This document shows positions 9,083 through 47,026 of a stretch of 64,000 nt of DNA, piece after piece. The notes below the pieces were generated by a model, which had not been told where the DNA came from, searched no databases, and saw only the letters and a list, made by a program, of their open reading frames with translations. Location of the stretch: positions 1 through 64,000 of the forward strand of contig CDRNXO010000001.1 in assembly GCA_977018835.1 (NCBI GenBank), written 5' to 3'. The number at the start of each line of letters is the position of its first letter. Positions within the stretch are counted from its first letter, which is position 1. This stretch comes from Minutocellus sp. GHC0000111. Lineage: Eukaryota. The position numbers and the translations under genes were made by a program.

Positions 9083-9498
9083 TATGTGCAAATTATGAAT
9101 CTGCAAGTCTTCAAGAGAATATATCTCTGAGTACTTGTACAATAAATGTTGACAATAATAGTACCCTCTAGAACGTAACACCGAGGTAGAGTCTAGATCT
9201 ACTCTGGTGGTACATGTGCACAGCAAGTCCTCGTTTATGATTTGTGCTGCACTTTTTAGACTACCATGAAAGACTGGTTGGTAGGAATTCCTATCAATCT
9301 ACGAGCTACTTTTCTACTTGCGGCTTGTTACGCTTACCAATTGGGGATAGAGAGGAGATCTATCGCATAAGAGTGTCTAATGGTGGTACCAATTGTTGGG
9401 AGACTCGACTCGAAATCTGAACATTCCGGCAAAAGCCACACACGCCCGCCCCTACTACGTAGCCGGAAGACGGACAGACAACGCCCATCTCGCGAAAG

Positions 9499-10930
9499 AT
9501 GCTCGCATATGCATACGGATGGGGGAAGAGCAACTCATATCTATCGAATCTGGAGAAGGTGGCGAAGAAAAGGAGCGGCGGTGGACCGGTATACTGCTTC
9601 CCAACGAGTGCCGATGATTCATCTGATTCGGCCGCCTTCCGTTCTGTCATCGACGATCTTGCAACGGCGACCCGGCGGTATGCTGCACCATATCTCTTTG
9701 CAATTGCCAAGTGCAGGGAGCAGGCAAAGGTGGACTATTCGGTGCTGTCCAGCGCAGAACATGGTGCACGATTTTCGGGATGGATGAAGGCGTATGGTGC
9801 TCTACCTGCATCCGAGAAGGCGATGTGGGAGATGAAGAGGAGATCTCATCTGGCTATGCAGCCATACATTCGAGATGTTATTGTTGATGCTCTGATACGA
9901 AATCCTCGGGAATCTTGGCGGGAGCTGGAGGTTGATGTCAACTTTTGGTGTTCCTACTCGGCAATACGGCGGTGGATAATGTCGCGGGAAGGGTTCCGGT
10001 ACTATGCCGAAAGGATCATCCCTCTCCTTACTACCCATCAGATGGAGAAACATTTGGTATTTGCGCGGAAATTCCGAAACAATTGGGGGCTCGGCGGTGG
10101 CAAGTTTCTCCTTATTTTGTTCGATGAGAAGTGGTTTTGGGGCTTGGTTCTTCGATCGTATGCCAAGCAAGTTGCAGAATTGGGTATTGATCCTCGGTCC
10201 TTCTCGGCATATCACCGAAATCACATCAACAAGTGCATGGTGGTGGCTGTCACTGCCTTGGCTTTTATTGACAGCATTGAGAATGGCGGCATCATTGCGT
10301 TCAAGCTTGGACTTTTTCGGGCTCAGGCGCATAAAATTGCGAGGCAGATGGTAAGGGAGGCGGTGCGGCAGGCAGATGGTAGAATCAAATATTGCGGCCC
10401 GGTGGTTCGGAAGAAAGACGATCTATACCTTGTGGATTGCGCGGTGACTGGATGCAGCCATGGCACCCTTGCTTGATAATCCCAAGTTCCCACTGAAAGC
10501 TTTATTTGAGAACAAGATGTTTCCGGATGTTGAGGCTTTGGTCGGACCTGGTGGAAAGTTTGAAGGCTATGTCCCTATTTTTCAGGGCGACAATGCTGGG
10601 CCCCATGCCGAGACTGAATTTGTGGAACATGTGGAAGGATACTGTCGGGACAAGGGATGGCGTTGGGAACCTCAGGCCCCGCAAATGCCCCATATGAATG
10701 TTCTTGATCTGTCTGTTTTCCCTTGCATGTCAAAGCGGCATACAATGTTGAGCCGCGATCGGGAGGGGCTGAAGGTTTTGACAGAAGATCAGACTTGGGA
10801 TGCAGCGGAGGAAGTTTGGATGGGGCTGGAAAACTGGAAGATCGCATCGGCATGCATCCAGGCTCATAGAATTGCAAAGAAGGTAATCGTTGCAAAAGGC
10901 AACAATGATTTTCTTGGAAACGGTGATGAT
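9499..10930 (+). mobile_element. Degraded Tc1/mariner-superfamily transposase (DDxD type, plant-mariner-like motifs)
   Basis: LFDEKWF, FQGDNAGPH and QAPQMPHMNVLDLSVF motifs. Frameshift near 10470. 3' end runs into unrelated sequence. No TIRs found. Confidence 0.75.
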
Positions 10931-18328: not shown

Positions 18329-18859
18329 GACGAGGGTGGGCGAATGAGAAAAGAAAACTCTTCGGTCGGACTCTCCAGATCTACTAGATTAGCCTACTAC
18401 GTAGCTTCTAAGCTACGTAGCTAGACTCTATTGCGCACATTATGTACACCACGCGCAGCCTCGGAGGGCTTGGGGGCTCCTGTGGGAGCCCAGCCATGTC
18501 GGCTCGGCAGCTCGCCATCGCCATGGGCTGCCATGCCAAAGCAACGTTTACGACGTCATTTTTCGTCATACAGAATTAGCCCGCATCCCGTCCACCCGTC
18601 CATCCCGCCCGCCACATCTCGCTCGGTCATATTGTGCTCATATTGCTTGCGAGAGTGCGAGAGCTGGGTGACTACCATACCAGGTACTACCGGTAGTAGG
18701 AGCCATTGCGCAATCTGTGTGTGGATTCACGTCCATTGCCCCCCGTGTGCGATGCGATGTCGAGCATGAAAAAAATCAAAGAAGAGGAAGCGAATCGTCG
18801 GCAGCGGCACTCCTCGGATCTTAGGATCCAATGGCCGCTTCCATCTCGAAAGGGACGCC

Positions 18860-20803
18860 ATGGGCGTACCAGGATTTCACGTAGCTGCCAATGTGTTCAG
18901 CCCTTCGGTCCATCGGCGTCTGTTTGAGGAGAAGGCCTTTGAGACAAATCCTCAACCCTTTGTCACGCAGCAGAGCGTGCCAATCCAGCAGACGATCCTG
19001 CACCCGACGAAGGCGGGGATCAATGGACCGTGGCCCGACAACTGGCATCGCATCATCAATGCCGTGCGAGACTCTGGTCTCTTCGAGCAGGCGACAATCC
19101 CAGATTGTGGCTATGGCTTGACGTACAATCCTGGGTCACAATTTCCATGCCACTGGGATGGCAGGGGAAAGTGGGGCGAATACGTCATTGTCGCGACTCT
19201 CGGTGCCCCCTGTACCATAACCATTCAGCATTGCGCTCCCAAGGGCAAGCCCGTGGATCCATCTCGGCCTTGGGATTGGACTCCGTCGGATCCGACGATC
19301 GTATCAGACGATCCGTATTGGACCCGCTCGATGACTGCCGAGGAGGTTCAGCTGGGCAGTTATGGCAACAATAAGCGTCGGCTGTGGCAGGTGACTATGA
19401 CCTTGCCTCCAAATAGTATGTACGTGATGAGTGGACCCTCGCGGTACGATTGGCAACATGGTGTCAACTGCGATCCGAATCACCCTGTGCCCAAATCTAC
19501 ATCGTCGTACATATCGGCAGGTGGGCGAGCTGTGCAAGTGCCTGCCGAAGAATGGCTGTTTCCTTCGTGGAACAAGTTCAAAGCCCGTCGGGGTGTCATC
19601 TACCGCTCCACAAAGTGCTTCAGTGATCTTTGCCTTCAGCAGGAGCGAGAGAAGGCCTATACAGACCGAGACTTTGGGGCCGTCACGGCCGTCAATGCTC
19701 GTATCGATGCGTCCCACCGCTTCAAGCCGCAGGATCAGCATGCCAGTAGAGAGCTGACGGAGGACGAGATTGAAGCGCAGGAGAAGATGGGATGTGCACT
19801 CATTAAGGAGCTGAAGAGAAGTGGCGTCCATCGGCTGCGATTCGCCAAGTCCGAGGTGCTCTTTGAATCGGACAATATGACCAGGGCGGCTGGTGATATT
19901 GATGCTCCCGCAGCATCGATCAAGTTCGATGAGGATGGTAACGTCGAAGAAGATGAGGACGAGAAGAAGGAAGATGATACTACTAGTATTGAGAATATTG
20001 TGGCATTTTCTGGTCAGGGGCGTCGACTTGGGCAAAGCTGGGAAGACCAAGCTACCGCCAAGGGAGGCAACCCTAAAAAGGCTGCATGCGAACCAGAAGT
20101 GATTGATCTTCTTGATTCTGACGACGAAGACGACGACCAAGATATGAAACCAGCGGCTGAGAAACAAGCTCCGGTGCCGGCACCTACGAGCAGGGCGCGT
20201 TCAGGCAGCCAGCAGTCCCACGGAATGAGCAATGCGGGAAGAGCTGCACTGCTGCGTTTTGAGTCGTCAAAGAATGGCGACACAGGAGCATCGGCGGCAG
20301 CCGCGGGTGCGATGTCTTCCCTTACGAACCCAACTGCTTCGTGGCAATGCCATCGGTGTACATTGATCAACAAGCCGAGCGCTCTACAGTGCATCTGCGG
20401 GACCGAGCGTCACGCGAATGCTGCACCAAAGCCCATGCCAACGCAAAATATTGGACCAACGGACCAAGCAGTGGCCCCGATGATTGGCCCGGGCGCTCTT
20501 TCGGCTGCATTGTTTGGTGCAATGGCGGACAGCAAGTCAGCATCTATTCAAATACCATCGACGCAGTATTCTGGCAGCGGTGGCTCGAGCGTGGCGCCCG
20601 GCCATGTTGGCAGCTTGAGGAACAAGCACGCGTACCTACGCAGCAGTGGTAGTGATACCGGTACATCCATCGTCGACAGCAGCAAGCGCCAGAGACCTGA
20701 TGGTGATGACGACAATGATGCGCAAGATTGTTTCTTGATGGGATCGCTACTTGTCGACAACAATCCTGGCGCCTACAGTAGCGGTGGATGGATCTGGACT
20801 TGA
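18860..20803 (+). CDS. AlkB-like 2OG-Fe(II) dioxygenase with SHP-box-like, SIM-like and RanBP2-type zinc-finger motifs; C-terminus probably chimeric
   Basis: YNPGSQFPCHWD, LPPNSMYVMSGPSRYDWQHGV, RRGVIYR; FSGQGRRLG; EVIDLLDSDDEDDD; WQCHRCTLINKPSALQCICGT. Confidence 0.75.
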   Translation: MGVPGFHVAANVFSPSVHRRLFEEKAFETNPQPFVTQQSVPIQQTILHPTKAGINGPWPDNWHRIINAVRDSGLFEQATIPDCGYGLTYNPGSQFPCHWDGRGKWGEYVIVATLGAPCTITIQHCAPKGKPVDPSRPWDWTPSDPTIVSDDPYWTRSMTAEEVQLGSYGNNKRRLWQVTMTLPPNSMYVMSGPSRYDWQHGVNCDPNHPVPKSTSSYISAGGRAVQVPAEEWLFPSWNKFKARRGVIYRSTKCFSDLCLQQEREKAYTDRDFGAVTAVNARIDASHRFKPQDQHASRELTEDEIEAQEKMGCALIKELKRSGVHRLRFAKSEVLFESDNMTRAAGDIDAPAASIKFDEDGNVEEDEDEKKEDDTTSIENIVAFSGQGRRLGQSWEDQATAKGGNPKKAACEPEVIDLLDSDDEDDDQDMKPAAEKQAPVPAPTSRARSGSQQSHGMSNAGRAALLRFESSKNGDTGASAAAAGAMSSLTNPTASWQCHRCTLINKPSALQCICGTERHANAAPKPMPTQNIGPTDQAVAPMIGPGALSAALFGAMADSKSASIQIPSTQYSGSGGSSVAPGHVGSLRNKHAYLRSSGSDTGTSIVDSSKRQRPDGDDDNDAQDCFLMGSLLVDNNPGAYSSGGWIWT

Positions 20804-23800
20804 CCGGAACAACGATGGTATATGTCTGATGATCCCCCGTCTCACAGCTGATTTCGTTAATACAGGCGATACACACGTCCAAATGGAGGGATTGATTCAA
20901 GCGGCGCTTCTTGATATCGACTATGCCTCGTTTTACGACGGGCAGCTCTCCTCGAGTTACTCTCTGGATGATTTTGGGGAAGCAGTCAAGCAGTCAAAGC
21001 TTGCGATCACGCCGTCGGTACTTTTGCTGCAGCAAACGGCATCGGCGATGCTCTGAGAGCCTTTGATGTGGCACCAGACCTGGAAAACGAATATGTATGT
21101 TCCTCGCATGACGACGAAGCCGCGCACGTCATTTTAACCGTCTTCAACAGTGGGCTAGAAACATTTCGGCACTTGATTCCGTATTTGTGGTCGATAGGAT
21201 TGATGTGTTGAGCACGCCGCTCCACAAACTCATGGCAGTTGCTCGCCAATCAAGCGACAGACAGAGTTTTTTGGCCCAAAGTCGCAACTCTTCACATCAC
21301 TCCCTTTCTAGTATTGGGCGACGGCCTCTTTGGCATGAGACCCAGACGCCTTGGACTGTTCTTGTCGGCGGGCTCAAGATTCTTTGGACTCTGGAGATTA
21401 GGGATGCCCTCCTTTCATTGTCACAAGATCTTATTTTTACCCTGGACTACATGAAGCTTGCTTTGAGAACAATGCCTTCGAAACACAAGGGATCGAACGA
21501 GGACGACCGCTCTTTTATACACCAAAACGGGGCAACGAATGGTGCGGTATTGACTGATAGCGTTCGAACTCAGGCCACTGCGCACGACGTTGACGAAGAT
21601 GGTGCGTCTCAGTCGAGCGATGACCTGGATTTGGATTATCTGCTTGGCGATTCTTCGCTCGGTCACCTCATTGAAGATGAGAAAGACAATAGTTCGAATC
21701 TTCAGAAGCCAAGGCTGAGTCGAAACATTTCTGTGCAGGAGGCCCGCCAGGCTTCCGGGGATTCGAATAGATCTATCGGCGGCGGCGGCGGCGGCGTCAA
21801 GGCATCAAAGAACGCTAGTATCTCCACTCTTGATGTCCATTTATCGAACCCTCAGTTCCAGCTTCACAGTGACCAAACGGGTGGAAGCGTGATCTTGGCA
21901 ATGAGAGGTGCATACATTGATGGGCAGCGATATCTCAATCTGATCGACCCGGATAACTTGTTGAATGCAGCATCGACGTCGATTGATAGCTCAAAGCTTG
22001 CGATCACGCCGTCGGTACTTTTGCTGCAGCAAACGGCATCGGCGATGCTCTGAGAGCCTTTGATGTGGCACCAGACCTGGAAAACGAATATGTATGTTCC
22101 TCGCATGACGACGAAGCCGCGCACGTCATTTTAACCGTCTTCAACAGTGGGCTAGAAACATTTCGGCACTTGATTCCGTATTTGTGGTCGATAGGATTGA
22201 TGTGTTGAGCACGCCGCTCCACAAACTCATGGCAGTTGCTCGCCAATCAAGCGACAGACAGAGTTTTTTGGCCCAAAGTCGCAACTCTTCACATCACTCC
22301 CTTTCTAGTATTGGGCGACGGCCTCTTTGGCATGAGACCCAGACGCCTTGGACTGTTCTTGTCGGCGGGCTCAAGATTCTTTGGACTCTGGAGATTAGGG
22401 ATGCCCTCCTTTCATTGTCACAAGATCTTATTTTTACCCTGGACTACATGAAGCTTGCTTTGAGAACAATGCCTTCGAAACACAAGGGATCGAACGAGGA
22501 CGACCGCTCTTTTATACACCAAAACGGGGCAACGAATGGTGCGGTATTGACTGATAGCGTTCGAACTCAGGCCACTGCGCACGACGTTGACGAAGATGGT
22601 GCGTCTCAGTCGAGCGATGACCTGGATTTGGATTATCTGCTTGGCGATTCTTCGCTCGGTCACCTCATTGAAGATGAGAAAGACAATAGTTCGAATCTTC
22701 AGAAGCCAAGGCTGAGTCGAAACATTTCTGTGCAGGAGGCCCGCCAGGCTTCCGGGGATTCGAATAGATCTATCGGCGGCGGCGGCGGCGGCGTCAAGGC
22801 ATCAAAGAACGCTAGTATCTCCACTCTTGATGTCCATTTATCGAACCCTCAGTTCCAGCTTCACAGTGACCAAACGGGTGGAAGCGTGATCTTGGCAATG
22901 AGAGGTGCATACATTGATGGGCAGCGATATCTCAATCTGATCGACCCGGATAACTTGTTGAATGCAGCATCGACGTCGATTGATAGCCTCTTGCAGAAGA
23001 CTGAATTTCAATACACGCTTGATAGAATGGAGATCTATGCAATTGCCCCAGGAGTGGACGTCGATGCAGGACTTCAGTGGCTTGACTATCACGAGAATGT
23101 CAACAGCGGCGATGGGGACACTTTTGAGGCTGACGACTATTCACAAGATGGAGATAATTACAACAGTGATGAAGACGAACTCCCGAGTATTTTGCCTTCG
23201 CTCTCGGTTCAGGGAGGAAGTATACGAGAGATGCCAGATGTAAAGGCATTTTCGCGAAGGCATTTTCAGCCTCGATTTGCCCAGTATGATCCCAAGACAT
23301 TCCGCAAGCCGCCTCTTATGCAACTCATCATGAACAGATGCACCTTCGACTCACGCCAAGTCTTTCACCGGAGCCCGCACCATCTATCAAGTGACGAATT
23401 GGCAGCATATATCAGAAGAGGCTACTTGGAGCCCTTGCTTGAATCAGCCTTGGACCAAGTTGACCTACACATCGACGAGATGTCGTTCATGTTGGACTCG
23501 CACCAGTACATCACCACGTTCGATTTGATACGAAACGTCCTTCTCGAGCCGCCCAAAGTTTCCAACAAGAGAGAAAGGCGACTGTTTGCCGAAGCAAAGG
23601 AGGAGCCATCGGACCAGGAGGAAGAGCTGCAGGAGATATCTGACGAAGCTGAGCAAGATGAGGCAACTGCCAATGTCGAAGCAATTGTCGAGGAATGGAA
23701 CACAAAGTTCCCTAGGCTCAAAGACGGAGTCCATCGACAGCGGAAAAGAATTCGCCAGCAGCTTCGAAATGCCAGTCAAAAGCTCATGGCGCCGCTTGAA

Positions 23801-39403: not shown

Positions 39404-42090
39404 CCGTCCAACACCATGGTGGTCCGTCGGCGTTGCGCCGGCGTATAACTATATTTTCGTACCAAACACGCATTCATTATCATGTTTGGATATAGTTGAA
39501 GCTTACTGTATCCTCAGATTGGCCTCCGCTGCGTATCAACGCCACGAACCATCGGCCTGCTTTTCCTCCATCTGTCGGCCGTTCGTTTCTCTGGGGTGGT
39601 GCCATTGCTCCATCTTTGTGCTCGTCGTGCTCCCGTTGTGATGCCCCAGACCCTCTGGTACTTTCCCACGTTGTTGTTGATGATAAACTGCCGGGATTGC
39701 GCCGCACCCCCCGTATGACCGACTCTCGCTGATCCCGACCGATCGCATCCCCACTCGACCTCCCGGAATTCCGACAACAATTTTGCGCCCGAGGAGAGAC
39801 AGATAGCATTGGGATAAGTTTATGCAACAATCAACCCGACAAAGGGACTTTTTGGTCTGGGAGATAAATGGGTGAGTTAAGAAGGACGTGATGTGTTTGT
39901 TTGGGTGCACTATTTACTTTTTTGCTCAATCGCGATGCTGTTTGTAAAAGTTGGACTGTTGTGCAATTCATTTGTCATTGTGTAGCAGTGGTGTGATTTC
40001 ATTTTCTAATTTTACACATGCCCTGCTCCCATCTCTACATCCTCATCTCCATCGGTGGCCATCATGATCATTTGTTGGCGCTTGTCATCAGTTTCTGCTT
40101 TAACAGCTTCGGTCCTTGTCCTTTTCCTTGTTCTTGCCACCCGAGAGTTTCGCTCCCGCCTCTCCTCGACCTTTGGATTGGATGCCCTCTCCTCAGCCTT
40201 GAACTGCGCCGTCTGTTGGGCCTCATGTCCCTTGACGCCCTGAGTCCGACGATCTTCCTTAACGCCCTCTTGGTGGGCTCGCTCTACAAACGATTCGTCG
40301 AGCCAACAGATGCCGCCCCATCCATTCTTCACTAGCCAAATGTGTTGGTCCAAGATGTGATCTTCGAGTAAGTGCCACTTGGGCGTTGTGCTAAAACACC
40401 GATTGCCCGTGCTTGCTTGAGGGCACTTGCAATCAATGCTTCAAGCTCTCTCACAGCCTTCTTTGCCTCATCATCCCATTTCATGCACCATTTCAGAAAC
40501 GTGGAATGTGTTGCGTCAAGAGTGTGGAGCAAATTAGAGCAAGCTTTGCAGAGCTCTTTGATGTCGTCATCCGTCATGCCATCTTCCTCGCGATTGTGCT
40601 CTAGGAGAGCTCCTTTGGTGGAGGTGTTATGGTGGGGATGAACTCTGTTGTCCTTGGTTTCTTCTTGTTGTTGCCATCAGAAATATTAATAGATAAAGCT
40701 CTCCAGCATTCTGCCAGCACTGCCCTTATTTTACCTGAGTCGGCCGCCTCAATGCCGGCCTTTTTCAGGAAATGGAAGTGAGGGGCATCGTCATCCTCGG
40801 CATCATCGACAGCTCCCATCTCTGGCTCGCCATCACCGTGCTTCTGACGACTCTTCTCAAAGTGCTGCTGCATGCATGTTTCATGTGCAGCGTCCTCTCT
40901 TGCAACATCAGCTTCGTCCTCATAACAGGGCACACAGTCCTCGTCTTCGTCGTCATCGTCCTCACTGATCTCGCCGGCCTCCGTCGTGGTCAGGGTGCCC
41001 ACCGTCCCAACATCGTCGTCATTGTCCCACCCATCGTCCTGGCCATTACACCCACCAGGGAACTTCTGGGCCTCGAGCAACATCTGCCTGTTGATTTCGT
41101 AGTCCATCGCCACATATCCCACCGATGTGTGTGGTGCGACCGACTTGAGGAATGCATTGCATGCCTTCGTCAAATTGAGCCGCGGCGGCGGTGTTTCGAG
41201 GCGAAATTGTTGCTCGACCGTGACCATGTCGAAAGCCATCCATCCATCATCATGGAGAGCGTCGGCTGCACGAGGATTGATAGAACCGAGGCGAACAAAC
41301 ATGCTCTTTTTGCATGGGGTTCGCTGAACGTCGTCGGCAAGGCAGTGTCTTGATACCATTTCATCCCATCCATTCTGGTTGTCTGTCCTCTCACAAAAAA
41401 CACATCGCAGTCTTCGTGTTTCTTCTTCTTCAAACCCAAGATGCCCGCAGTGCACATGACGGCGCCGTACATGATGGGACTGCATCCCAACACATTCATC
41501 AAGGAGTCGTTGTTGTTGCCGATGAAATTGTAGTAATGAAGTTCCTTTCTGCGAAGACGGACGAGCAGTTCAGCCAGGGCGTCCTGCACCGCAACTCTGT
41601 CTGCGGTGTTGACCGCGGGATTGCGGCCGTTGTTTGTTTTGCTCATGGAGAATTATGGATCGAGACCAACGGGAATATCACCAGGATGTCGGGAGTACCT
41701 GGTTGGTCTCGTGCCGTAATTCTCCCACACCAGCGCGAGATATCGCCTTCGTTCTGCACGTAGCGGCGGCAATTTGAATTTTTGCCGCCATGGTGGCTCA
41801 CGTTGGGCGCGCCGGTCGGTTGCTTCGCGCGCCGGCCGGCCACCGAAAGTGCGACCAAAAGTATGCGAGTCATCCGGCTGGCAGATGGTGCTGTGCGTTG
41901 AATGAAGCAACAAAGGCGTTTTGCACAATTTGCACATGAAATATTTTTCATTCAAAAGAGCTCGAAAGACCCCCCTGAAGATGAAAGGCAACTACCATTG
42001 AAGAGTTTCGAGGTCCGGAGGACACAAAGTATCAAAAGGATCAAATTAAACCTAATGACTATGTATTTTGATTACCACCATGTTGGAAGG
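39404..42090 (-). mobile_element. Decayed DNA transposon with a Transib/RAG1/Chapaev-type transposase C-terminus; internally deleted and frameshifted
   Basis: Reading 40386->40270 gives TPKWHLLEDH...GGICWLDESFVERAHQ. Fragmented ORFs 40012-41646. Imperfect inverted termini at 39404-39423 and 42074-42090; boundaries tentative. Confidence 0.55.
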
Positions 42091-42120
42091 AACGACCATA
42101 CCAAGATGACAGCACCGCAT
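42088..42120 (+). rRNA. 5S rRNA: 5S rRNA gene, 5' fragment (about nt 1-33)
   Basis: AGGAACGACCATACCAAGATGACAGCACCGCAT has the conserved CATACC and GCACC.CAT. GGAACGAC pairs with GTTGTTCT, and AAGATG pairs with CATCTT of the 3' fragment. Confidence 0.9.
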
Positions 42121-44423
42121 ATTTCCATTCGATGACATCCACAGCCAGGATATTGTTTTGGAGTCGTGGGCAGACTTGCGCGAGGTAGTGAGCAACAATC
42201 CGGGAGCCATTGATGATTGCCTGTTTCCAATTAGCGGGATGAACTACGGAAACGGAGTTGACACCATGACCAATATTTTTTTTATGGACGGCAGAGATCC
42301 GCGACAGCCCAACCGAATCATGGTATCGGCCGATTACGAAGAAAGAGGGTACGACGAAACAATACAGAGCAAAGTGGCTCGGGTTGGGATGTATTCGTAT
42401 CATTTATGCGAACCAGCGTGCTTTCAGTGCCGCCCATGTAAAGACGGTGGGCTAGAACCATTGATGGAATTGGGAGTCGAGGTATGGAAGATGATTCGGC
42501 CCTACCTGTACGATAATGGGTGCATGTCAACGCCTGCCCTCCCAACACATGTCAGGGGGTAGTGCATTTTGGTAACAGTGATATTGCGGCACATCAAGAC
42601 ATGAATCCATTGATGGGAATAGATCTTCACGATAACAGCCAGTGCGTGGGATCGGCAGTCATTGGCATTTCTCTCTATGCAGAACAGATATTTGCTTTGT
42701 TGAACAAGCCATTTCCGTACCACAAAACGGCAAGGTACACCCACGAGAACATGGCAAAGGATGCGAGTGGAAAATACATTGCTTTCCAGACCAATCATGG
42801 TCAGATTTACGTCCTCCTTCCAGATGCAGACATCAAGTACTATCACCACGCTTCTACCCAAGTGGTGAGACGGCAGAGATTGGCCGTGTGAGAATATCTC
42901 TGACCTACCGATGGTCGGGAAAGAATGGGTTTGTCTGCACCGATCTGACGAAGGAGCTGGGAAGGGCACAAGTCCGACCTGACCCAATTGGAGATCTCAG
43001 AGGGATGGGCCCCATGCTGTTTCTCCCGGTCTACTTACTTTCCTCACCACCCCCCTATTTGATACGGACATCTTCCCTCCGTACCTCAAGAAAAGATACA
43101 ATGCCTACTGCAATCGTCGCCCAGGAGTGGGATTCACTCTCGAGCAATTTGCCACACTTATATTGACCTGCAACTGCTTCGCGTGCGGTGCCAGCCCAAT
43201 GGATGTAATGATGACCATTGACCGGTACAACAATGCCATCAGGTACACCGGTCAGGACGAAGTAGTGCTGTGCATTTGCTGCCAGAACCATAAGAGCAGC
43301 GATAGTATGCAGACTCTCCTCGATCACTCCCGCTCCATTGCAGCTCATGTTGAGGCAACTCCAGCTCTCTTGGAATTATCCCAGACAACATTCTTCCAGC
43401 CCTTCACTGAGGAACAAGATGAGGCTCTTCTTCGGATCTGTCGTTCTCTCAGGGTCGATGTCGAGCAAGGATACAGCAATGCTCTCGCAAGGAGGATGAG
43501 AGAGGGCGGACATGGTCTCCGCAGTAGAGAGGAGGTCATGATGAGGCTGCAGTATCTTGTATCAAGGTGGGATGGTAAGCTGTGCCTTTATTGCGACAGC
43601 AAGGGTGTCACTGTCAAGTTAGCGAACGACAAGGGTCCACTCGGGGAGACTATTGGCCAGCTCGTCGAGGAGGAGAACAACATCGTCGCTGAATGTCTTG
43701 CAGCCAACAACATTGATACAAACAGCATTTCGGTAGACGTCCAGTGCCTCATTGTATCGACCCTAGAGCAATCCGGTTTCTCTCGTACCATTTCGCAGAT
43801 CAAGCACCATGTCCGTCGCTACTTTGATGGTGAGGTGCTGACAATGCCAGAACAGAGGGTGCGGTACACCAAGTATCGCCACGAGGAGATAGTAGGAGGC
43901 ATCAATGAAGCTGGCATACGTGATCGGGGATATGCCGCCAGCATTGTTGGCGTTCCCAGGGCCGAGTTGACTGCCTTCCTCGAAGGCCACAGGAGCGTAG
44001 CTGAAAATGTCTTTCATTCCATCGGATACGAGCAGAAAGTGTTCAATGCAAACAGGGACGAGTACATTCGACTTTGTGGACCCGAATTCTACACCTTTTC
44101 CAAGTGCAATACTTGCGACCACTACGGATGCTTGCCAATCAAGCGATTGGATGGCTGGGGCAATATCAAGGCCAAACCGGGGAAAAAGCACTCTCGTTGC
44201 ACAGTGGACGAAAAGGGTAGGTACGAGGAGGTTCAGGACGTGTCGGACATTACGCCCAGCACCTATAAATGCACAATTAAGTTTTAGAAAATTAATTTGT
44301 ATTGCCTTTTGGATCTTATGTGTAGGAATTCCTATGCCTGTAACATGGCATCGACAGCACCGCATACCAATTTAAGCAATACAATAGCATCAGGTTTAGC
44401 ATTAGCGTCTACCCTTACCTTCA
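42121..44423 (+). mobile_element. ~2.3 kb insertion interrupting the 5S rRNA gene
   Basis: Lies exactly between the complementary 5S halves. GACAGCACCGCATA occurs at 42108-42121 and again at 44353-44366. Confidence 0.8.
42122..44287 (+). pseudogene. 5'-truncated, frameshifted ORF: AlkB-like 2OG-Fe(II) domain, HNH-like nuclease domain, two Myb/SANT-like repeats and a Cys-rich tail
   Basis: AHQD...VIGISL...HGQIYVL...YYHH...RISLTYRW; CFACG...TIDRYNN..Y...VVLCICCQNHK; FTEEQDEALL...RSREEVMMRLQYL. Shifts near 42555, 42885 and 43000. Last frame open 42983-44287. Confidence 0.65.
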
Positions 44424-44509
44424 CCGTTCGCTCTGCGAAGTTAAGCATCTTCGGGCTCAGTTAGTACTGCGGTGGGGGACCACGTTGGAATCCTGAGTGT
44501 TGTTCTTTT
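44424..44509 (+). rRNA. 5S rRNA: 5S rRNA gene, 3' fragment (about nt 35-end) with oligo-T Pol III terminator
   Basis: CCGTTCGCTCTGCGAAGTTAAGC...GTTAGTACT.CGGTGGGGGACCACGTTGGAATCCTGAGTGTTGTTCTTTT; box A (AGTTAAGC) and box C region recognisable. Confidence 0.95.
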
Positions 44510-45050
44510 GTTTTTGCCGCTTTTGGAAGTCCCAACGTGCCCCTGGATCGTTCTTGGGCCTGACTTTTGTTCTGTTGTGTCTGGGAGGTGTTTATTTTTA
44601 TTCATACCAATTGGTATTTGTTGACATGCAGATTATCTGGAAATGCTCAGTTATGTTATGAACGTCTTCCACTTTCAATTCATATTCTATCATCGCCTCT
44701 GCTATCCTGTTTCCTGTTTTACCGGTGCTGCACACTGAATCCATAGCAAGGTATTCCCTGAGTGTTGTTCTTTTGCTCTTTTGATGGACGAGACGACGAG
44801 ACGGTGGTTGGACTGTTTTTTGCCTTTTGTAAGTGATTGGAGGTCCAGGCCTTTCACGGGGTTCCGTTTAGCGGCCTTCAAGTCAGAGATGGCGGCAAGG
44901 GAGCCCGGCACATCTAGCTAGTCTAACAATTCATGGAATTCCAATTCATGCCTCACAGTTGTATTCTACTTAGATCTATGTACATGTCATGTATGTGCAG
45001 GCTTCGAAGCTAGTGGCCAATCCCCCTCTCCCCGATCTCCCCAGAAAATC

Positions 45051-46886
45051 TCATAATTCAAACCGAGGAGATCGTTCCTTCATCAGCCTGGTCTTTTTGG
45101 TTTCGTCATCCTTCTTTCGCCGCTTGAATTCATCGTAGTCTTGTTTCTTGGTGCTCTTGGATGTCTCATCGCTGGCAGATCGTCTCCGTACTCTCTTTCG
45201 AAGCCAGGCTTCTGGATACAGGTCCGATGGCACACCAATCTCGTGGCGAAATGCCTGATATAGGAATGTATTAGTCGTCAGGGGTCGATCAACAATTAGA
45301 ATGGCATCCCATGGTACATCGGTGGCAATATGTCTGCCACCGGTGAGGTTGCAAATCTCTTGAGGTCCATCGAATGGCAACATTTCAGCAGTATAGAACC
45401 ATTCGCCTTCGGATCGCTCGTCGTCGTCCACATCGCTGGCATATCGCTGTAATATTCGACACGGCCTCATGCACTCATGTGGCCAGTCTTCCTCCGTTGT
45501 CCATGTAGTGTAAACCATTTGCTTTTGCTGGTCAAACTTGATTATTGTCGCATCGTTGTCATAGAAACAAACCGTTTCCAAGTTATCCGGGTAAGGGTTT
45601 GTTTTTTGCTCCTCAATGGTTCGAACGTCCTTCTGGAAGCATTCCGTCTCGCGACAAAATCGATCAGCTGACTTGTAGCTCTTGGCCCCATCTGTAGGCT
45701 TCCAACGTCGCACGTGATTATCCCAAGCCTTGCGCCATGCGTCTCCGTAATCAAGATAGATTTCCTCACCATTTGCAATGTCACCAAGAGCGACGTAATC
45801 AATCATTAGACCCTTGCCATGCGTATAAATCACGTCGTTTGCAGATAGTTCCAATAGCTCCGAATGATGAAACTGCTGCCGTCGTGGGAGGTCAGCATGA
45901 GCATCTTGATCCAACGAGTGCCAACGGATAATTGCGTTGGCCTTCTTTCCCGGTGGCGGATGGTTGATGTAACCAGTGAGAGGCCCATACGGCAACAACA
46001 ATATATCCGAATCTTCGTGCCCGAGCACAAAATTCAACAGCATTTGATATGGCTGACCTTGAACAGTAGAACCGGTGTCATCGCCAAAAAGTTCCCTACG
46101 ATGGATTGGAATGACTGGGGAGGAGGAAATAACGTCCCCGCTGAATATTTGCCGCGTTGCCATCAACCCCATTCCCCCAATGCTACTATCGGATGCTGGT
46201 CCTGGTTTGCCAATGTCATCCACACAAATGAATCTGGAATCCTTTGGATCGAAAGCTGAAGTTTGGTGCGCATTCCCATCAAAGTCGTCATCGGGACACT
46301 CCACCACCAATTCTTCTCCAGCACGGATATCACGAGTAGCCAAGTAGGAGAGATTATGCCGATAGGAATAAGCACCAGCGTGATGACCATCCCTGGTCGG
46401 ACTATCCGCATCGTCGGCGACGTTTTGTCGAGATACGCCCGTGAAGACTCCGGCGCCAGAGAGTTGCAAATTGTAGTTGTTGATTGTACAGGGAGCGATG
46501 CTGGAGAGCCCGGGGCTGAACCACAGGGCATTCCTCGTCTTGCTCCCAACCAGTGCCACCTCCGGTAATTCACCCCCGCCCCAAAGGTACTCGCGGATGA
46601 CAGGATCGAGATCAGAGTCGAGTGTTGCAGAATCATAAATTGGGATCAACACCTCACTCAAATTGGACAGGACCGTTCCAGCCGCAATGTCCTTGCCGGC
46701 GAACATCCCCAGCCCAAACCCTTGTTGTTCCTTCTCCTTGATGATGGAAGGTCCAAGAAAGATGGAACAGTCACTTTCGTCATTGCTATTGATTCGTCGC
46801 GAATGCACATAATTCTCATCAGTCGAACCAAAGAAGAGGGCGAGGTAGCCCAGTCCTTTTATCACTGCTGGCCGCCGCCTCATCAT
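45051..46886 (-). CDS. Protein with two SET-like domains and an N-terminal signal/TM segment
   Basis: GLGMFAGKDI...ATRDIRAGEEL; GMGLMATRQI...GYINH...ALGDIANGEEIYLDYG. Confidence 0.85.
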   Translation of the reverse strand: MMRRRPAVIKGLGYLALFFGSTDENYVHSRRINSNDESDCSIFLGPSIIKEKEQQGFGLGMFAGKDIAAGTVLSNLSEVLIPIYDSATLDSDLDPVIREYLWGGGELPEVALVGSKTRNALWFSPGLSSIAPCTINNYNLQLSGAGVFTGVSRQNVADDADSPTRDGHHAGAYSYRHNLSYLATRDIRAGEELVVECPDDDFDGNAHQTSAFDPKDSRFICVDDIGKPGPASDSSIGGMGLMATRQIFSGDVISSSPVIPIHRRELFGDDTGSTVQGQPYQMLLNFVLGHEDSDILLLPYGPLTGYINHPPPGKKANAIIRWHSLDQDAHADLPRRQQFHHSELLELSANDVIYTHGKGLMIDYVALGDIANGEEIYLDYGDAWRKAWDNHVRRWKPTDGAKSYKSADRFCRETECFQKDVRTIEEQKTNPYPDNLETVCFYDNDATIIKFDQQKQMVYTTWTTEEDWPHECMRPCRILQRYASDVDDDERSEGEWFYTAEMLPFDGPQEICNLTGGRHIATDVPWDAILIVDRPLTTNTFLYQAFRHEIGVPSDLYPEAWLRKRVRRRSASDETSKSTKKQDYDEFKRRKKDDETKKTRLMKERSPRFEL

Positions 46887-47026
46887 GTGCAGATAAAAAT
46901 GCGTTTGTGGGCATTAATAGAGAGCAGCATATCATTTGCCGGAGCGTATCTTGCGTGTGCAGATTAAATAGCGTTTGTGCGCATGAATGGAGAGCAGCAT
47001 ATCATGTGCCGGAGCGTATCTTGCGT
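46885..47026. repeat. Imperfect ~70-bp tandem duplication at the SET gene 5' end
   Basis: AGAGCAGCATATCAT.TGCCGGAGCGTATCTTGCGT at 46921 and 46991, with similar preceding sequence. Confidence 0.85.

What the first reader, a model, noticed from the sequence alone, without database searches (positions are those of the whole stretch)
42088..44509. 5S rRNA gene split by a 2.3-kb coding insertion: candidate 5S-targeting mobile element
Seen: 5S nt ~1-33 at 42088-42120 and nt ~35-end plus the T-run terminator at 44424-44509. The halves restore helix I (GGAACGAC/GTTGTTCT) and helix II (AAGATG/CATCTT), so they belong to one gene. The intervening 2.3 kb is coding from the very junction. Known: elements specific for small RNA genes exist (Tx1-clade Mutsu in fish 5S, Dada transposons in U6/U1/tRNA genes). 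Inference: this is a site-specific element using multicopy 5S as a safe harbour. It shows no reverse transcriptase or DDE motifs, and I know of no described element with this cargo in diatoms.
Basis: partly seen in the sequence, partly recalled or inferred. Interest (0 to 1): 0.9.

Follow-up and report, generated by a model that had tools for sequence, protein, structure and literature searches.

The report
Derelict cargo element inside 5S gene
A 5S ribosomal RNA gene of a probable diatom is split by the broken remains of a two-gene DNA insert (a 2-oxoglutarate oxygenase gene and a likely DNA-cutting HNH protein gene) set between 13-14-base repeats of the 5S sequence, which is likely the wreck of a mobile element that targets 5S genes much as fungal Starships do, although its moving enzyme was not seen and repeated independent insertion is not shown.

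Summary
The split is real: 42088-42120 and 44424-44508 are 5S nt 1-33 and 35-120, and both junctions recur in public contigs (20-29 bases a side, under the tool's 31-base bar). An exact 14-base repeat of 5S nt 21-34 (42108-42121, 44353-44366) bounds the insert. The last 57 bases are a separate dispersed repeat, absent in another strain, where the insert runs into intact 5S nt 21-50. The window copy is cut at its 5' end inside gene 1, lacks an inner part and has two frameshifts; longer copies extend at least 1.5 kb upstream. Gene 1 is a 2OG-Fe(II) oxygenase (40 relatives); gene 2 is weakly HNH-like and under purifying selection. No RT, transposase or recombinase is seen. Both visible right ends sit at 5S nt 21, but the copies may stem from one insertion. 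Best reading (0.45): derelict of a 5S-specific, recombinase-type cargo element, with a Starship-like footprint (Voyager also inserts 20 bp into 5S) outside fungi. Main rival (0.25): one chance insertion, passively copied.

The parts
42088..42120 (+). 5S rRNA gene, nt 1-33
   Evidence: RF00001 positions 1-33, truncated hit; pairs with the 3' part; joined to 44424 by one C in 3 of 4 runs
42108..42121 (+). left copy of the direct repeat (5S nt 21-33, plus one A that also belongs to the element's gene 1)
   Evidence: exact 14-base repeat; bases 42120-42121 are shared with the long copy's reading frame (loose end, P0003)
42121..44352 (+). remnant of the element: cut at the 5' end, with an inner deletion at 43014/43015
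   Evidence: contigs of X1, X5, X6 run on 1546, 1284 and 1378 bases upstream of 42120 (table 8); branch at 43014/43015 and P0005
42121..43014 (+). gene 1 remnant: 2OG-Fe(II) oxygenase (AlkB-like clan), lacking its first ~156 codons, frameshifted near 42529 and near 42855
   Evidence: P0003/P0012; relative P0023 37% identical, E 7.7e-74, passes PF13532; the frame-shifted tail matches P0023, E 8e-10 and P0024
43015..44287 (+). gene 2 remnant: likely HNH/His-Me-finger array with a DNA-binding tail, 5' part lost
   Evidence: PHROG endonuclease VII E 8e-4 on P0005, HNH E 0.043, Atlas leads under 0.9; no Pfam or NCBIfam hit
44288..44352 (+). non-coding right end with a 12-base palindrome (44323-44334); no poly(A)
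   Evidence: sequence; fold not better than shuffles, z -0.91; longest A run 4
44353..44366 (+). right copy of the direct repeat (5S nt 21-33/34)
   Evidence: in run X14 it is followed directly by 5S nt 34-50 (tables 7, 8)
44367..44423 (.). 57-base dispersed repeat ('B'), a later insert in the right-hand 5S piece
   Evidence: pieces that cover only this stretch and run on unlike DNA: 5 of 8 shown for X1, 7 of 8 for X14, 4 of 8 for X15; single in the window; no Rfam family
44424..44516 (+). 5S rRNA gene nt 35-120 and T-run terminator; one substitution (44469) against the other 5S copies
   Evidence: table 3

Best explanation
This is the broken remnant of a gene-carrying DNA insert bounded by a 13-14-base repeat of 5S nt 21-33, and it is likely a mobile element that integrates specifically at this spot of dispersed 5S genes by a recombinase-type reaction whose gene would have been in the lost 5' part or supplied in trans. 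Shown: the repeat, the two cargo genes, the longer copies, the 5S flank at the right end in two strains, the later 57-base insert, the decay of this copy. Inferred: (1) the element carries or duplicates 5S nt 21-33 and inserts as DNA, leaving nt 1-33 on the left and nt 21-120 on the right; (2) spare 5S copies (depth about 8 times the flanks) make the loss cheap; (3) later breaks at the 3' edge of the repeat, from aborted excision or from the element's own HNH protein, were mended once by a 2-base microhomology join that removed the 5' part and once by capture of the 57-base repeat; (4) gene 1 would oxidise or demethylate modified bases of the element's DNA or RNA and gene 2 would bind and nick DNA. 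Neither activity was tested.
For: Repeat of 13-14 bases at nt 21-33 is in the range given for 5S-targeting Starships, 6-16 bp (PMC11162782), and Voyager inserts 20 bp from the 5S start with a 12-bp repeat (PMC9156397). The right end abuts 5S nt 21 in 2 of 2 runs where the flank is visible (X1, X14; 4 runs laid); X14's copy differs by 8 letters and 9 gap positions in 176 and lacks B. No poly(A), and no RT in the retained 3'-most gene. A low-copy family: four gene-2 proteins within 90% on three contigs, one of them cut at about 43700, and a further deleted gene-1 copy P0024; depth in X1 is 1.7-2.0 times the flanks. Gene 2 is conserved against a diverged relative: 8 of 40 changes radical against 47% expected, p 4e-4. 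The left break and the B insert fall within 2 bases of the same 5S position. P0005's N-terminus reads like a 60-base in-frame intron inside an HNH unit (by eye), which favours DNA movement.
Against: No recombinase, transposase or RT was seen, and the long copies' 5' part could not be fetched (scans empty). All X1 copies share B, so they come from one insertion by DNA copying; the long copy P0005/P0012 lies on a contig that also holds a 99% twin of a window gene, so it may be an allele; X14's copy may be the same inherited insertion. Starship recombinases are reported absent outside Dikarya. The Voyager repeat is not the same sequence (best ungapped match 8 of 12). HNH support is weak: no Pfam hit, the three units are not significantly alike, both structure models failed. 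Gene 1's 40 relatives have no known context and may be ordinary host genes. Depth of contigs is a rough guide only.
Confidence: 0.45

Rival explanations
1. One chance insertion of a non-specific DNA element (or captured host genes) into a 5S gene long ago; the other copies are alleles and passive duplications or conversions of that one 5S unit.
For: Shared B in the X1 copies; long copy on the homologous chromosome and the cut copy P0004 on the window's own contig; 5S units share 3' flanks, which eases conversion (tables 3, 5); all three close gene-1 copies share one frameshift.
Against: A chance hit in about 100 bases of a few 5S genes is unlikely for a low-copy family; the site matches a known 5S hot spot; a second event (B) fell at the same spot (about 5% by chance within the right-hand 5S piece; my arithmetic); gene 2 was conserved over longer time.
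Confidence: 0.25
2. A nuclear homing element: the HNH protein cuts empty 5S genes near nt 33/34 and repair copies the element from an occupied 5S; one-sided copying from the right arm gives a fixed right end and ragged left ends, and carries B along.
For: HNH-like gene and no integrase in view; fixed right end with left ends at 42120 and about 43700; B copied with the element; microhomology at the left join.
Against: Homing alone does not make the first 13-base repeat; HNH hits are weak and unit 2 has Q where the metal-binding N is expected (by eye); no self-splicing intron restores the 5S; a review calls repair by end joining unfavourable to homing in eukaryotes (PMC13565253).
Confidence: 0.13
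3. A 5'-truncated retro-insertion made by target-primed reverse transcription at 5S, by an RT in the lost part or in trans (Mutsu/R2-like).
For: 13-14-base repeat, 5' truncation and 2-base microhomology are the usual footprint of such insertions (established knowledge); Mutsu is a LINE in fish 5S (PMC10946416).
Against: In LINEs the RT gene is the 3'-most one, and here that gene is HNH-like with no RT; no tail; no B-bearing empty 5S seen that could have served as target (depth table); likely intron in the long copy.
Confidence: 0.12
4. No element: two host genes lay between two 5S copies and deletions fused them, or the window is mis-assembled.
For: No contig passes the 31-base bar at either junction; X1 shows no piece over the left junction.
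Against: Both junctions recur in other contigs, the left one in a 2018 run of another study; two unrelated deletions would have to leave an exact 13-base overlap; several deleted copies exist.
Confidence: 0.05

Closest known systems
5S-targeting Starships of fungi (Voyager; Enterprise-, Arwing-, Voyager-families; PMC9156397, PMC11162782, PMC10104507, passages read)
   Same: Gene cargo inside a dispersed 5S gene, direct repeat of target sequence of similar length (12 bp for Voyager, 6-16 bp for the group), insertion about 20 bp from the 5S start, derelict copies, mobiliser at the 5' end or in trans.
   Different: Non-fungal host; no DUF3435 captain seen; known length only about 4 kb or more against tens to hundreds of kb; different cargo; repeat sequence differs; no empty/filled pair shown.
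Dada DNA transposons, including Dada-5S of fish (PMC3706591, PMC8869645, passages read)
   Same: Small RNA gene as target, no terminal inverted repeats, deleted derivatives at the same site.
   Different: Dada repeats are 6-7 bp and it encodes a DDE transposase; Dada-5S has another target sequence; a review states that no homing-type endonuclease is reported in Dada (PMC13565253 section 6.3, read whole).
Mutsu and other site-specific non-LTR retrotransposons (Mutsu as 5S LINE from PMC10946416 and PMC3706591; its Tx1 clade is recalled)
   Same: 5S target, 5' truncation, short repeat.
   Different: No RT or APE/REL nuclease in the retained 3' gene, no tail.
KolobokP (PMC9587614, passages read)
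   Same: Eukaryotic DNA element with a His-Me finger nuclease as the downstream gene.
   Different: KolobokP has 450-660-bp terminal repeats, TTAA duplications and no RNA-gene target.
Group I intron homing endonucleases in nuclear rDNA (I-PpoI type; as described in PMC9587614)
   Same: His-Me-type nuclease gene inside a nuclear rRNA gene.
   Different: Those sit in self-splicing introns of the large rRNA genes; here no intron core, the gene is destroyed, and a second cargo gene is present.

Membership tests
Starship | DUF3435 tyrosine recombinase (captain) as first gene at the 5' end | tested here: inconclusive
   None in the retained part; the 5' part is lost here and the long copy's DNA could not be fetched
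Starship | short direct repeat matching the target | tested here: met
   13-14 bases of 5S nt 21-33/34
Starship | cargo of whole genes | tested here: met
   two genes, now broken
Starship | fungal (Dikarya) host, as reported for all Starship recombinases | tested here: inconclusive
Starship | filled and empty versions of the same locus, several independent sites | not testable with these tools
   no genome held; contigs break at the 5S
Dada | 6-7-bp target duplication | tested here: not met
   13-14 bp against 6-7 bp
Dada | DDE transposase with C/DxxH | tested here: inconclusive
   no family hit in the retained part; 5' part unseen
non-LTR retrotransposon (Mutsu/R2 type) | RT-bearing ORF at the 3' end | tested here: not met
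   3'-most ORF has no RT hit or motif
non-LTR retrotransposon (Mutsu/R2 type) | 5' truncation with short target repeat | tested here: met
KolobokP | 450-660-bp terminal repeats and TTAA duplication | tested here: not met
   no repeat over 25 bases in 41500-45200
group I intron with homing endonuclease | self-splicing intron core | tested here: not met
   no Rfam match
Replitron / Helitron | HUH transposase | tested here: inconclusive
   none in the retained part; Replitrons were not found in diatoms (PMC10288648)
2OG-Fe(II) oxygenase, PF13532 (gene 1) | HxD...H iron triad and 2OG-binding Arg in a PF13532 domain | tested here: met
   HxD and H in P0003, Arg strand in the shifted frame; 2 of 29 relatives scanned pass the Pfam cut-off and 2 more hit below it; 27 of 40 relatives keep the HxD pattern
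HNH / His-Me finger nuclease (gene 2) | beta-beta-alpha metal motif with zinc cysteines | tested here: inconclusive
   PHROG E 8e-4, 0.004, 0.043; no Pfam hit; model pLDDT 35

The most novel reading that the evidence does not exclude
A living family of 5S-specific cargo elements in diatoms, convergent with fungal Starships down to the insertion site, that also carries its own HNH homing endonuclease to re-cut empty 5S genes and an oxygenase to erase host base modifications: the pairing of an RNA-gene-specific transposon with a protein-guided homing nuclease that a 2026 review calls possible but unreported.
Probability: 0.2. Interest if true: 0.85.

Novelty: new variant of a known kind. Interest (0 to 1): 0.58.

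Why it matters
Gene-carrying elements that target 5S genes are described in fungi (Starships), and bare ones in fish (Dada-5S, Mutsu). A matching footprint in a marine alga, at nearly the same 5S position as Voyager, would show that this safe-harbour strategy arose again outside fungi and that 5S nt 20-33 is a convergent target. It would point to an undescribed site-specific integrase or nuclease for a sequence that is present in several copies in every genome, of use for gene delivery in diatoms. If the copies stem from one old insertion, it is a curiosity that still reveals an unnamed oxygenase family.

Tried and rejected
No genome held. Scans for the element's DNA context all empty: viral contigs, JGI metagenomes, prokaryote genomes, phage records (one hit at E 0.9; none); one search found no stretch conserved enough to search. 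Word-index protein searches gave only near-identical copies; the HMMER search of representatives was run for gene 1 only, so distant or fused relatives of gene 2 were not searched at that depth. Both AlphaFold models were unusable (pLDDT 31 and 35) and Foldseek gave 0 matches at E 0.001. PDB searches: nothing for P0003 or P0005; only an HA-domain hit at E 0.02 for the family profile. The three HNH-like units are not more alike than shuffles (1279-1556 of 2000 shuffles as good). P0003 is not similar to the host oxygenase at 18770-20800 (E 1.6). No inverted repeat joins the two present ends. An RNA-guide reading of the inner 5S copy was dropped once run X14 showed it is simply the right-hand 5S. 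An intron reading of B (minus strand shows donor- and branch-like motifs, by eye) was not tested. Run X8 laid nothing; RNA runs are contigs and cannot show expression. 9 of 10 proteins looked up exactly were not in the collection, so the homologous-chromosome inference rests on one gene; the window's own gene-2 product differs from P0006 by one residue, unexplained. Earlier-finding look-ups by place, sequence and words were empty. Ten paper searches listed no 5S-inserting element of diatoms; none used the word Starship, and Repbase Reports and most subscription journals are outside the library. The supplement of PMC11162782 was cut when stored, so the positions of all Starship repeats on 5S were not seen.
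Full report
Observation. The 3' piece 44424-44508 is RF00001 positions 35-120 (51 bits, E 1.8e-10) and the 5' piece 42088-42120 is positions 1-33 (10 bits, E 6). A whole-window scan at gathering level misses both, and a relaxed scan forces only the 3' piece. Placed together in a script with N at nt 34 they fold into the usual three arms with 22 pairs across the break. The unsplit gene, with C at nt 34, stands in contigs of 3 of 4 public runs laid. A contig of run X7 (RNA library, 2018, another study) lies on 42101-42885 without other letters, and a contig of run X1 lies on 44395-44450 without other letters. These give 20 and 27-29 bases beyond the joins, under the tool's 31-base bar, so they support the joins without proving them.

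5S nt 21-33 plus one A is repeated exactly at 42108-42121 and 44353-44366; 1 of 3000 control 34-mers reached such a match in the insert. In run X14 a 598-base contig follows the insert's end (8 other letters and 9 gap positions in 176), passes the repeat and goes on as 5S nt 34-50 with no 57-base piece. So the true right end is 44352/44353, at 5S nt 20/21, and 44367-44423 ('B') came later. B is a dispersed repeat: pieces covering only B and running into unlike DNA are 5 of 8 shown for X1, 7 of 8 for X14 and 4 of 8 for X15 (8 pieces and 14 loose ends were not shown). It has no Rfam match and one copy in the window.

The window copy is a wreck. Contigs of X1, X5 and X6 run on 1546, 1284 and 1378 bases upstream of 42120. 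Proteins P0003 and P0012 hold about 156 more residues in front of the junction, which falls inside gene 1 with two bases shared between 5S and gene. Three of 4 runs have one more base behind 42529, which joins the first two frames. At 43014/43015 longer copies hold extra DNA (P0005), while an X7 contig crosses that point as the window does. Four amino-acid changes in gene 2 are private to the window type when P0002 is the outgroup.

Cargo. Gene 1 has 40 relatives at E up to 0.001 among 1.84 billion representatives. The best, P0023 (37% identical), passes the Pfam cut-off for PF13532, 2OG-Fe(II) oxygenase; 2 of 29 scanned pass, 2 more hit below, and 8 of 29 hit the HA DNA-binding domain at E up to 0.05. 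27 of 40 keep the HxD pattern. The last strand with the Arg lies in another frame near 42855 in the window, P0003 and P0012 alike, and matches P0023 (E 8e-10), so all three close copies of gene 1 are broken. The Atlas lead agreed (0.77). Gene 2 is only weakly classed: PHROG endonuclease VII at E 8e-4 on P0005, an HNH family at E 0.043, Atlas leads to HNH and HTH clusters under 0.9, nothing in Pfam or NCBIfam. By eye (motifs recalled) it has three HNH-like units, an HTH-like stretch and a zinc knuckle, but the units are not more alike than shuffles and the fold failed. Between P0001 and P0002, 8 of 40 changes are radical against 47% expected (p 4e-4), so it was under selection. No RT, recombinase, DDE or HUH motif of weight and no poly(A) were found.

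Copies. Gene-2 proteins within 90% lie on three contigs: P0006 and the cut copy P0004 on one of 5,175,589 bases, P0005 on one of 5,317,691, P0001 on one of 264,863. A window gene is exact on the first, and its 99% twin is on the second, so the long copy P0005/P0012 is on the homologous chromosome and may be an allele. Contig depth in X1 is 2.0 times the flanks over gene 2, 1.7 times over the right end and the B/5S join, and 7.7 times over the 5S; the tool warns that depth is no copy number, but it suggests at least two occupied loci among about eight 5S loci. Because the B/5S join is as deep as the element's end, the X1 copies share B and so descend from one insertion. No piece with 5S nt 21-33 and B but without the element adds depth at 44343-44360. 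The flank of the right end is visible in 2 of the 4 runs and is 5S nt 21 in both; no non-5S flank was shown. Independent insertion is therefore not demonstrated.

Mechanism. The best fit (0.45) is a DNA element that integrates at 5S nt 21-33 by a recombinase-type step and has lost the part that would encode the enzyme. The lead came from earlier notes of this scan on fungal genomes and was checked in papers. Voyager always inserts 20 bp from the 5S start with a 12-bp repeat (PMC9156397, passages). 5S-targeting Starships have repeats of 6-16 bp, a 5' captain, at least five separate 5S sites, and are reported absent outside Dikarya (PMC11162782, passages and two supplement rows). Their repeats are carried homology and the captain works in trans (PMC10104507, passages). 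The Voyager repeat is not the same sequence as ours (8 of 12 at best). The left break (nt 33/34) and the B insert (nt 33-36) fall at the 3' edge of the repeat, which suggests a cut there; whether by an integrase or by gene 2 is open. Rivals: one chance insertion copied passively (0.25), homing by gene 2 with one-sided repair (0.13), target-primed retro-insertion (0.12), no element or artefact (0.05).

Comparison. It works most like a derelict 5S Starship but cannot be filed as one: no captain is seen and the host is probably not a fungus. Dada is excluded by repeat length, 6-7 bp (PMC8869645, PMC3706591, passages); a LINE such as Mutsu (PMC10946416, passages) by the lack of RT in the 3' gene; KolobokP by its long terminal repeats (PMC9587614, passages); Replitrons were not found in diatoms (PMC10288648, passages). 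Polinton-like viruses with tyrosine recombinases and HNH genes are a possible source (PMC12220804, passages), but six scans of viral contigs found no relative. A 2026 review says a protein-guided homing nuclease could help a transposon only if it targets a repeated RNA gene, and that none is reported in Dada (PMC13565253, section 6.3 whole and passages). Ten searches of the paper library (listings) showed no such element in diatoms; the library lacks Repbase Reports and most subscription journals.

Verdict. Observation confirmed and refined; interpretation partly supported. New variant of a known kind, interest 0.58. One look at the flanks and the 5' part of the long copies would decide between a specific element and a single old insertion.

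Noticed in passing
window 41300-41895 (left end not seen): A very high-copy repeat ends sharply at 41895, 193 bases upstream of the 5S: summed contig depth 29,000-48,000 against about 110 for the flanks in run X1. It carries minus-strand ORFs without Pfam hit; its end reads CACAG on the minus strand, as in some CACTA-type ends (recalled); no partner end in the window.
   Followed up: partly
window 44367-44423: Repeat B occurs at many non-5S sites in three runs, mostly starting at 44368 and ending at 44412-44424; one site in X1 and X7 is flanked by an 11-14-base duplication. Its minus strand shows donor- and branch-point-like motifs by eye, so it could be a small intron-forming element.
   Followed up: partly
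window 44757-44775 and 44509-44704: A 19-base second copy of the 5S 3' end; other 5S loci share a similar 3' flank with deletions.
   Followed up: no
window 20994-22987: Exact 997-base tandem duplication (100% identity) over the start of a Hobbit/CHORD-domain gene: recent duplication or assembly slip.
   Followed up: no
window 9463-10473: ORF with a Tc1/mariner-type HTH (PF01498, E 4e-6), probably a transposon remnant.
   Followed up: no
P0023-P0062: An unnamed family of 450-775-residue 2OG-Fe(II) oxygenases, 8 of 29 scanned with an N-terminal HA domain; genomic context unknown.
   Followed up: partly
window 46886-47026: Two 71-base tandem copies at 90% identity just upstream of the SET-domain gene.
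   Followed up: no
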